Source of the DNA: Zoogloeaceae bacterium
GTDB taxonomy: Bacteria; Pseudomonadota; Gammaproteobacteria; Burkholderiales; Rhodocyclaceae
Assembly (NCBI GenBank): GCA_031267345.1
Contig: JAIRZG010000162.1
Span: forward strand, 1 to 42,620
Direction of reading: 5' to 3'
DNA length: 42,620 bases
Shown here: positions 2,477 through 2,757 of the stretch, piece by piece
Layout: each line of letters begins with the position of its first letter
How positions within the stretch are numbered: position 1 is the stretch's first letter
Notes under the pieces: model-generated
The model's input: only the letters and a program-made list of their open reading frames with translations
The model's database searches: none
Told to the model about the DNA's origin: nothing
Translations under genes and position numbers: made by a program

Positions 2477-2746
2477 ATGGAACTAAACGAGATCATCACA
2501 ACGGCAGCGCGCAGGCTGAACGTTAGCCAAAGCAAACTTGCCCAAAGAATCGGGATGCACGCGCCATCCTTGACACACGTCATAAAAAAAAGACGGCAAC
2601 TGACGGCGGAAGCGGCGATTGAACTGTCAGAACTGACAGGGATGAACGCCAAACAAGTCTGGCTTGCGGCGCAAAGATACTGGCGCGCCCGAGACGATTC
2701 GAACGTCCGACCCCTGCCTTCGGAGGGCAGTACTCTATCCAGCTGA
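2477..2746 (+). CDS. XRE/Cro-like HTH repressor; C-terminus encoded by the antisense tRNA-Arg
   Basis: [38 protein letters not shown]; the last 21 residues ([21 protein letters not shown]) and the TGA lie inside the tRNA. Confidence 0.8.
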
Positions 2747-2757
2747 GCTACGGGCGC
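2681..2757 (-). tRNA. tRNA-Arg (anticodon CCG)
   Basis: GCGCCCGTAGCTCAGCTGGATAGAGTA CTGCC-CTCCGAA-GGCAG GGGTCGGACGTTCGAATCGTCTCGGGCGCGCCA; 77 nt with encoded CCA. Confidence 0.97.

What the first reader, a model, noticed from the sequence alone, without database searches (positions are those of the whole stretch)
2477..2757. Second, unrelated element shows the same repressor-into-tRNA read-through
Seen: an 89-aa XRE protein with a strong SD takes its last 21 residues and its TGA from antisense tRNA-Arg(CCG). The repressor sequence, Rep family (Rep_trans vs gene II/X), operator and tRNA all differ from the right-hand prophage. Two such cases 32 kb apart argue against accidental stop loss and for a shared design (inference).
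Basis: partly seen in the sequence, partly recalled or inferred. Interest (0 to 1): 0.8.

Follow-up and report, generated by a model that had tools for sequence, protein, structure and literature searches.

The report
Filamentous phage repressor re-tailed by integration
A likely filamentous phage inserted in a tRNA gene has its attachment site inside its repressor gene, so inserting or excising would swap the repressor's tail; in relatives the free-phage tail is a roughly 30-residue basic, hydrophobic peptide that likely switches the repressor off, a design known from other phages but not found by my searches for this group.

Summary
Confirmed. An 89-aa XRE ORF (2477-2746) ends inside antisense tRNA-Arg(CCG). 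A second 53-bp copy of the tRNA 3' half lies on contig C117 and stops at the anticodon loop, before the stop codon. Excision would therefore keep residues 1-83 and replace GSTLSS* by KICS...; the contig ends there, so this element's own tail is unknown. The design recurs: 36 of 36 profile hits beside Arg/Pro tRNA cores cross the CCA end, in all three frames. Five XRE genes of other elements stop short. In 13 of 15 relatives with both ends, the free-form tail is 27-45 aa, basic and hydrophobic (off-frames 5 of 30). It often overlaps the 3' end of a convergent tyrosine integrase, and two natural joins show it. Best reading: an integration-coupled repressor switch, working like mycobacteriophage BPs immunity and inovirus RSS0 ORF13, which is homologous to relatives. 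It differs in combining an inovirus, a tRNA target, its own convergent integrase and non-ssrA tails. That the tail inactivates the repressor is inferred, not tested. The scan noted the actinophage version before on other DNA (e1-1995157). New variant of a known kind.

The parts
2477..2746 (+). XRE/HTH repressor-like ORF, 89 aa, prophage form (ends ...[11 protein letters not shown])
2464..2470 (+). Shine-Dalgarno-like AGGAGGT
   Evidence: sequence
2430..2458 (+). sigma70-like promoter match for the repressor gene (TTGTCA-17-TATACT); a divergent TTGACA lies back to back on the - strand
   Evidence: the divergent hexamer was read by eye and not listed by the scan
2394..2423 (.). two palindromic operator-like boxes TAGC-N5-GCTA (2394-2406, 2411-2423), with a partial third copy at 2428-2443
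   Evidence: operator function inferred
2681..2757 (-). intact tRNA-Arg(CCG), the integration target
2673..2725 (.). 53-bp att repeat (tRNA nt 33-77 plus 8 nt), identical to G000:C117:15-67
2719..2725 (-). anticodon loop CTCCGAA, left border of the repeat and predicted strand-exchange region
   Evidence: same or nearly same border in G000, G013, G014, G019, G208 and L156; role inferred
2726..2746 (+). host-derived codons GSTLSS* present only in the integrated form
3..383 (-). N-terminal part of a Rep_trans rolling-circle initiator, cut by the contig end
1320..2339 (+). DUF2726 cargo gene of the element
2869..3360 (+). host cytochrome c gene flanking the tRNA (same flank in relatives)
34266..34679 (-). 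repressor-like ORF of the right-hand inovirus, reading through tRNA-Pro(CGG) 34275-34351 in another frame; no second att copy in the assembly

Best explanation
The left element is likely an integrase-encoding inovirus whose attachment site lies inside the 3' end of its repressor gene, so recombination at the tRNA-Arg anticodon loop would swap the repressor's C-terminus and likely act as the lysogeny switch. Shown: the overlap; the second att copy; its border before the stop codon; different downstream codons on the two sides. Shown in relatives: a roughly 285-aa tyrosine integrase pointing at the core from the other side, and a free-form tail of 27-45 basic, hydrophobic, acid-poor residues, often written antisense over the integrase's last codons. 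Inferred: in the free replicating form the tail makes the repressor unstable or sequesters it (a degron for ClpXP, Lon or FtsH, or a membrane-binding helix), so the divergent replication promoter stays on. Integration replaces the tail by a short polar end (GSTLSS*) supplied by the always-open antisense tRNA frame, giving a stable repressor that binds the TAGC-N5-GCTA boxes and silences the prophage. Convergent, overlapping rep and int transcripts in the free form may also damp integrase (speculative).
For: C117 holds the only duplicated tRNA 3' half among the 36 tRNA/tmRNA genes of the genome. Sister genomes G014 and G017 have an att copy or relic, with integrase sequence, beside the same host gene. 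G208 carries a complete element of the same layout (Rep_trans 43% identical to ours, same cytochrome flank). 36 of 36 profile hits cross the CCA end, in frames A, B and C; the 35 intact ones form 15, 10 and 8 clusters at 70, 50 and 40% identity. In-frame tails pass a length and composition filter in 13 of 15 elements versus 5 of 30 off-frames; nulls 6-8%. Post-core DNA of the four GC-rich-clade tails compared scores only 35-45, near background, so those peptides look convergent. Natural joins L141 and L178 show a repressor running through the core and ending FLFA*/FQFA* inside the integrase 3' end. Where tails overlap the integrase, the antisense peptide is 50% ALIVFM and 3% Pro versus 35% and 11% elsewhere, and GC3 drops only in that segment (15 vs 17 integrases). 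RSS0 ORF13 is 62% identical over 92 aa to the G451 repressor, and its 26-aa integration-removed tail passes the same filter. Precedent: BPs gp33 loses a 33-aa tagged tail on integration (PMC4557955).
Against: This element's own tail is known for only 14 nt (KICS + TG); a TGA there would leave a 4-aa tail. Its integrase and virion genes are not in the assembly, so the C117 link and inovirus identity are inferred. Two of 15 relatives fail: G108 (degenerate att, 84-aa tail) and G283 (inserted gene, 67-aa acidic tail). The tail filter was set after seeing tails. 8 of the 15 elements are one clade, and 2 pair ends from different contigs. Tails lack a shared ssrA-like end: 7 of 13 end in Ala, only 1 in AA. 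The profile was seeded mostly with read-through proteins. 9 of 15 'overlap' integrases were assigned by spacing, and kin are not independent. Our repressor has no significant pairwise match to RSS0 ORF13. No expression or stability data.
Confidence: 0.62

Rival explanations
1. The tail swap is real and selected, but the tail is a gain-of-function part (dimerisation, activation, or action on host genes) rather than an off-signal; the free form is active in a different way.
For: Tails conserve amphipathic character rather than a terminal motif. A low-confidence single-sequence model (mean pLDDT 57) draws residues 139-160 of the L178 free form as a helix. PMC3816273 proposes that full-length RSS0 ORF13 regulates host genes and the truncated form stabilises the prophage.
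Against: No sequence conservation among tails, which a specific protein contact would usually need (inference). In BPs both forms bind DNA alike and the tail causes degradation (PMC4557955).
Confidence: 0.2
2. The family uses the switch, but this particular copy is defective or tail-less: its free form ends KICS* and behaves like the prophage form.
For: The 14 known bases end in TG. Aligning them by eye to G014 on a 5-nt match allows either an in-frame tail or a stop. Decayed elements are common at this site (G015, G020, G017, G108).
Against: The att copy is 100% identical over 53 bp, and promoter, operators, SD and ORF look intact.
Confidence: 0.12
3. Neutral compaction: small phage genomes lose stop codons, the antisense tRNA frame is open anyway, and the tails are by-products of the antisense of the conserved integrase end.
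For: Open antisense frame in 102 of 105 tRNA copies. The LFA* end maps onto the conserved I/V-T-Q-T-E codons. Large serine recombinase-like ORFs also run into this tRNA.
Against: Similar tails occur where cargo DNA separates the integrase from the core (8 elements). Spacer length keeps the frame in most short-spacer cases. Synonymous codons shift only where overlap exists. Five other XRE genes stop short.
Confidence: 0.05
4. The mature tRNA or its precursor acts as an antisense regulator of the repressor mRNA, and the overlap exists for RNA pairing.
For: The last 66 nt of the prophage ORF are complementary to the tRNA, and a tRNA promoter-like site faces it at 2799-2771.
Against: Repressors L276, L285 and L292 cross tRNA-Val in sense, and RSS0 uses dif with no tRNA. 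It would not explain peptide-level similarity of tails.
Confidence: 0.02

Closest known systems
Integration-dependent immunity of mycobacteriophages BPs, Brujita, Charlie (PMC3694055, PMC9262239, PMC4557955)
   Same: attP inside the repressor gene; tyrosine integrase; attB overlapping a tRNA (tRNA-Arg for BPs); a tail of about 30 aa lost on integration; divergent promoters with an operator upstream.
   Different: Tailed dsDNA actinophages with rep and int co-transcribed and ssrA-like tags on both proteins. Here: ssDNA inovirus-type elements of proteobacteria; integrase convergent, with its 3' end often overlapped by the tail; no shared ssrA end; the prophage form gains 6 or so tRNA-encoded residues; no cro seen.
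Ralstonia inovirus RSS0 ORF13 and Xanthomonas inovirus XacF1 ORF12 (PMC3816273, PMC4471427, PMC5666396)
   Same: Inovirus repressor with attP inside its 3' end. RSS0 ORF13 matches the profile built here (E 9e-22) and is 62% identical to the G451 repressor; its 26-aa removed tail has the same make-up.
   Different: They use dif and host XerCD and encode no integrase; here a tRNA target and a phage integrase. The passages read give no degron test and no survey of tails.
tRNA-integrating inoviruses Pf4/Pf5, RSM1 and the STM 6070 prophage (PMC4471427, PMC3816273, PMC10011098)
   Same: Inovirus with its own recombinase and a tRNA 3'-end attachment site.
   Different: In RSM1 attP lies between integrase and repressor, and the repressor ORF is unchanged by integration. 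No att-in-repressor was described for the others in the passages read.

Membership tests
Integration-dependent immunity (BPs type) | attP lies within the repressor ORF so the two states give different proteins | tested here: met
   53-bp repeat ends at codon 83 of 89; other side reads KICS; natural joins L141 and L178 in relatives
Integration-dependent immunity (BPs type) | attB overlaps a tRNA gene and a tyrosine integrase acts on it | tested here: inconclusive
   tRNA met. Integrase PF00589 next to the core in relatives, but this element's integrase is not in the assembly
Integration-dependent immunity (BPs type) | rep and int co-transcribed in one operon | tested here: not met
   integrase is convergent to the repressor in the relatives with both ends and in both natural joins
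Integration-dependent immunity (BPs type) | ssrA-like C-terminal tag on the viral repressor form | tested here: not met
   1 of 13 passing tails ends in AA; 4 end LFA; others vary. Host ssrA tag is ANDERFALAA. This element's own tail end is unknown
Integration-dependent immunity (BPs type) | ssrA-like tag on the integrase | tested here: not met
   clade integrases mostly end LLPF, LEPF or LLPL
Integration-dependent immunity (BPs type) | viral form degraded, prophage form stable and immune-conferring | not testable with these tools
   needs half-life and immunity assays
Integration-dependent immunity (BPs type) | divergent cro and no excisionase | not tested
   middle of the element is missing; not searched systematically in relatives
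RSS0/XacF1-type att-split inovirus repressor | repressor homologous to RSS0 ORF13 | tested here: inconclusive
   profile match E 9e-22 and 62% to G451; no significant pairwise match to the window's 89-aa protein
RSS0/XacF1-type att-split inovirus repressor | dif target, host XerCD | tested here: not met
   target is tRNA-Arg(CCG)
Inovirus (Tubulavirales) | pI/Zot ATPase, coat genes and rolling-circle Rep | tested here: inconclusive
   Rep_trans present; pI and coat genes lie beyond the contig end; G208 relative with the same layout has coat-like, pIII-like and pI-like ORFs read by eye

The most novel reading that the evidence does not exclude
A widespread group of proteobacterial inoviruses uses integration itself as the lysogeny decision through a motif-free, amphipathic C-terminal degron or membrane anchor. 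The tail has been re-invented in at least three reading frames, three tRNA targets and three att geometries, and is often overprinted antisense on the integrase's 3' end, so one short stretch of DNA encodes the integrase end, the repressor off-switch and an antisense brake on integrase.
Probability: 0.45. Interest if true: 0.7.

Novelty: new variant of a known kind. Interest (0 to 1): 0.52.

Why it matters
It would extend integration-dependent immunity, experimentally shown in actinophages, to chronic ssDNA phages of proteobacteria, and link it to the untested RSS0/XacF1 observation through a homologous repressor. It turns an open hypothesis (why inovirus repressors are cut by their att site) into a simple test with more than a dozen natural tails. 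It suggests a degradation or localisation signal defined by physical character rather than motif. Practically, database proteins ending [21 protein letters not shown] or [20 protein letters not shown] are prophage-state forms, and the free-state protein is usually not annotated.

Tried and rejected
No sequencing run was listed for window 1-2800, so the join could not be read; this is no evidence either way. The rest of Rep, the integrase and contig overlaps were not found in G000. The 14-nt flank of C117 had no exact match elsewhere in the genome or in the loci held. The Rep fragment found no relative in viral contigs or in 21 congeners. C68 inovirus genes follow host genes on their contig and could not be tied to this element. 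The repressor alignment was too diverse for a locus scan. INPHARED phages: no match for the L178 or P0003 repressors; only weak hits for L180; best integrase hit 42% in tailed Pseudomonas phages. The single-sequence fold was low confidence and is used only as a hint. A mirror read-through in integrases that point at an intact tRNA was not seen in the 3 loci with both ends, though 3 others later showed sense read-through of tRNA-Val. An order-wide search of 401 genomes added 2 matches at E<=1e-90. The dif string printed in PMC3816273 was not found verbatim in RSS0 ORF13, so the cut at residue 130 is the paper's. Broussard 2013 Mol Cell was not held. PMC12715192, PMC13626063 and PMC5744446 passages held nothing on att-split repressors. 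Rejected: stop position inside the tRNA as evidence of design (the frame is open in nearly all copies); LFA* alone as a degron motif (partly dictated by integrase codons).

Full report
Observation. The ORF at 2477-2746 (+) encodes 89 aa with a Pfam HTH_3 hit and an AGGAGGT six bases upstream. tRNA-Arg(CCG) lies at 2681-2757 (-), so residues 69-89 and the TGA are antisense tRNA. Upstream are a promoter match at 2430-2458 and two TAGC-N5-GCTA palindromes. Further left are a DUF2726 gene and a Rep cut by the contig end; all 29 longer homologues of the Rep carry Rep_trans. The right-hand prophage has a gene II/X Rep, SSB, pI and secretin and reads through tRNA-Pro in another frame. The two repressors do not align pairwise but share phrog_638. 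The host is probably a Rhodocyclaceae-like betaproteobacterium, inferred only from the titles of GTDB records with the same tRNA core.

The second att copy. The genome holds one duplicated tRNA 3' half: C117:15-67, identical to window 2673-2725. It covers tRNA nt 33-77 plus 8 bases and ends at the anticodon loop. Tyrosine integrases often exchange strands at the anticodon loop (recalled, not from a call). Read in the repressor's frame, the C117 side gives ...PLPSE-KICS and then the contig starts. The free form would thus keep residues 1-83 and lose GSTLSS*. That C117 is the far end of this element is inferred. In G014 the cytochrome-tRNA-repressor end and an integrase-core-host gene end sit on two contigs beside the same host genes, and G017 has a decayed integrase-core relic beside that gene. 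The middle of our element is not in the assembly.

Chance. The antisense frame is open for 21 codons in 102 of 105 full tRNA copies, so the stop position means little. The test is whether repressor genes reach the tRNA. Among 266 de-duplicated Arg or Pro core sites, an iterated profile gave 36 hits; all face the tRNA and cross its CCA end, in frames A, B and C. One is a relic; the other 35 form 15, 10 and 8 clusters at 70, 50 and 40% identity. The profile was seeded with 10 proteins, 8 of them read-through forms, so this describes one broad family. Of 98 other candidate ORFs, 58 face the tRNA and 3 cross it. I scanned 56 of the 98 with Pfam: five XRE-type genes of other elements stop 51-207 nt short. 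Further read-through cases turned up in L386, G016 (tRNA-Pro), G283 and G451.

What replaces the end. Relatives with the far junction show a roughly 285-aa tyrosine integrase (PF00589) pointing at the core from the other side. For 15 elements with a known repressor frame, 13 in-frame tails are 27-45 aa with at most 8% D/E and at least 33% ALIVFM; 5 of 30 off-frames pass. Random-position and shuffle nulls on nine of the loci gave 6.1% and 8.3%. The filter was chosen after seeing tails, 8 of the 15 are one GC-rich clade (hosts not looked up), and G013 and G014 pair ends from separate contigs. The failures are G108 (mismatched att, 84 aa) and G283 (inserted gene, 67 aa, acidic). In the GC-rich clade cargo genes separate integrase and core; the four post-core stretches compared score near background, yet the peptides are alike. 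Two contigs show the joined form directly. L141 has integrase end, core and repressor ending FLFA*. L178 has a repressor 42% identical to the window's right-hand one, reading through a tRNA-Arg 5' half and ending FQFA* inside the integrase. Where the tail overlaps the integrase, the antisense peptide is richer in ALIVFM (0.50 vs 0.35) and poorer in Pro (0.03 vs 0.11). GC3 is lower in that segment (0.51 vs 0.70) but not in the rest of the gene (0.58 vs 0.62); 15 vs 17 genes, 9 of the 15 assigned by spacing, kin not independent. L276, L285 and L292 cross tRNA-Val in sense, so antisense tRNA is incidental. Three other two-ended loci of that orientation show no crossing.

Mechanism. Shown: att inside the ORF and different ends in the two states. 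Inferred: the free-form tail inactivates the repressor, the short polar prophage end stabilises it, and it then represses the divergent replication promoter through the palindromes. Non-polar C-terminal degrons exist for FtsH (LpxC; PMC12444477 passages), but the tails share no terminal motif: 7 of 13 end in Ala and 1 in AA. Degradation, membrane sequestration and a gain-of-function helix cannot be told apart here. The single-sequence model of L178 (mean pLDDT 57) draws the tail as a helix with a loose end. For this element the tail is known for four residues only.

Known systems. Integration-dependent immunity places attP in the repressor, uses tRNA attB sites, co-transcribes rep and int, and tags both proteins (PMC3694055, first of three parts read; PMC9262239 and PMC4557955, passages). 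RSS0 ORF13 is cut from 156 to 130 aa at dif, with function left as hypothesis (PMC3816273 passages). XacF1 ORF12 is split likewise and stabilises the prophage (PMC5666396 passages). RSS0 ORF13 fetched here matches my profile at E 9e-22, is 62% identical over 92 aa to the G451 repressor, and its last 26 residues pass the tail filter, a test on data not used to set it. It has no significant pairwise match to the window's protein. tRNA-integrating inoviruses are known (PMC4471427 and PMC10011098 passages); in RSM1 the repressor is unchanged by integration. The element works like BPs but fails three of its defining features as judged on relatives (co-transcription, ssrA tag on repressor, tag on integrase), so I do not file it as a member. 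Nine literature searches listed no paper describing this tRNA-plus-convergent-integrase inovirus form. The library lacks most subscription papers, Broussard 2013 was not held, and I read no supplements; its list of prophages in other bacteria may bear on novelty.

Verdict. Real, non-random and recurrent; a new variant of a known switch. Confidence that excision changes this protein is about 0.9, that the family design is selected about 0.9, and that the tail is an off-signal about 0.62. Interest 0.52.

Noticed in passing
G000:C140:5191-6142: A third element in this genome: an integrase 63% identical to the clade points at intact tRNA-Val(CAC). One sense frame through the tRNA 3' half runs over the integrase end and stops at ALFA*, a likely third case of the switch. 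Its repressor end is not in the assembly.
   Followed up: partly
G000:C117:60-67; G014:C131; G283; L156 10145-10170: The host-side att copy extends 8 to about 46 nt past CCA into repressor coding sequence, likely scars of earlier related prophages. G015:C80 and G020:C110 keep only a repressor C-terminal remnant beside the tRNA. In L141 and G283 this stretch looks like a hairpin-plus-T terminator (by eye).
   Followed up: partly
L060, L134, L149, L153, L056, L393: Several ORFs ending in a KKGTSKEVP-like motif also run into antisense tRNA-Arg(CCG); L060 is open for over 490 codons and looks like a serine recombinase, and L393 (no such motif checked) hits Zn_ribbon_recom. Possibly an att-inside-recombinase arrangement.
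   Followed up: no
L186, L187, L178: Elements that duplicate the 5' half of tRNA-Arg(CCG) rather than the 3' half; L178 carries a promoter-like TAAAAT before it, and in L186/L187 the integrase frame runs into the tRNA 5' end.
   Followed up: partly
P0003, P0004: Relatives of the window's repressor (53-56% identity) with no tRNA peptide but a hydrophobic segment; P0003 also ends in a basic amphipathic tail.
   Followed up: no
window 34380-34440; L180; RSS0 ORF13: Many family members, including the right-hand repressor, have a hydrophobic, membrane-like segment just before the att core; the 89-aa left repressor lacks it.
   Followed up: no
G000:C68:12409-16012: Further inovirus genes (pIII-like, pVI-like, pI, secretin) next to a VapBC-like pair, not tied to either window element.
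   Followed up: partly
L293, L294, L298, L299, L302, L311: Repressor at a half-site lying only about 700 nt from an integrase N-terminally short of the query, suggesting tandem or shrunken elements with short alternative tails.
   Followed up: no
window 1320-2339 and 34849-35451: Both prophages carry a DUF2726 gene next to the repressor, as do G002, G013 and G108 elements.
   Followed up: no
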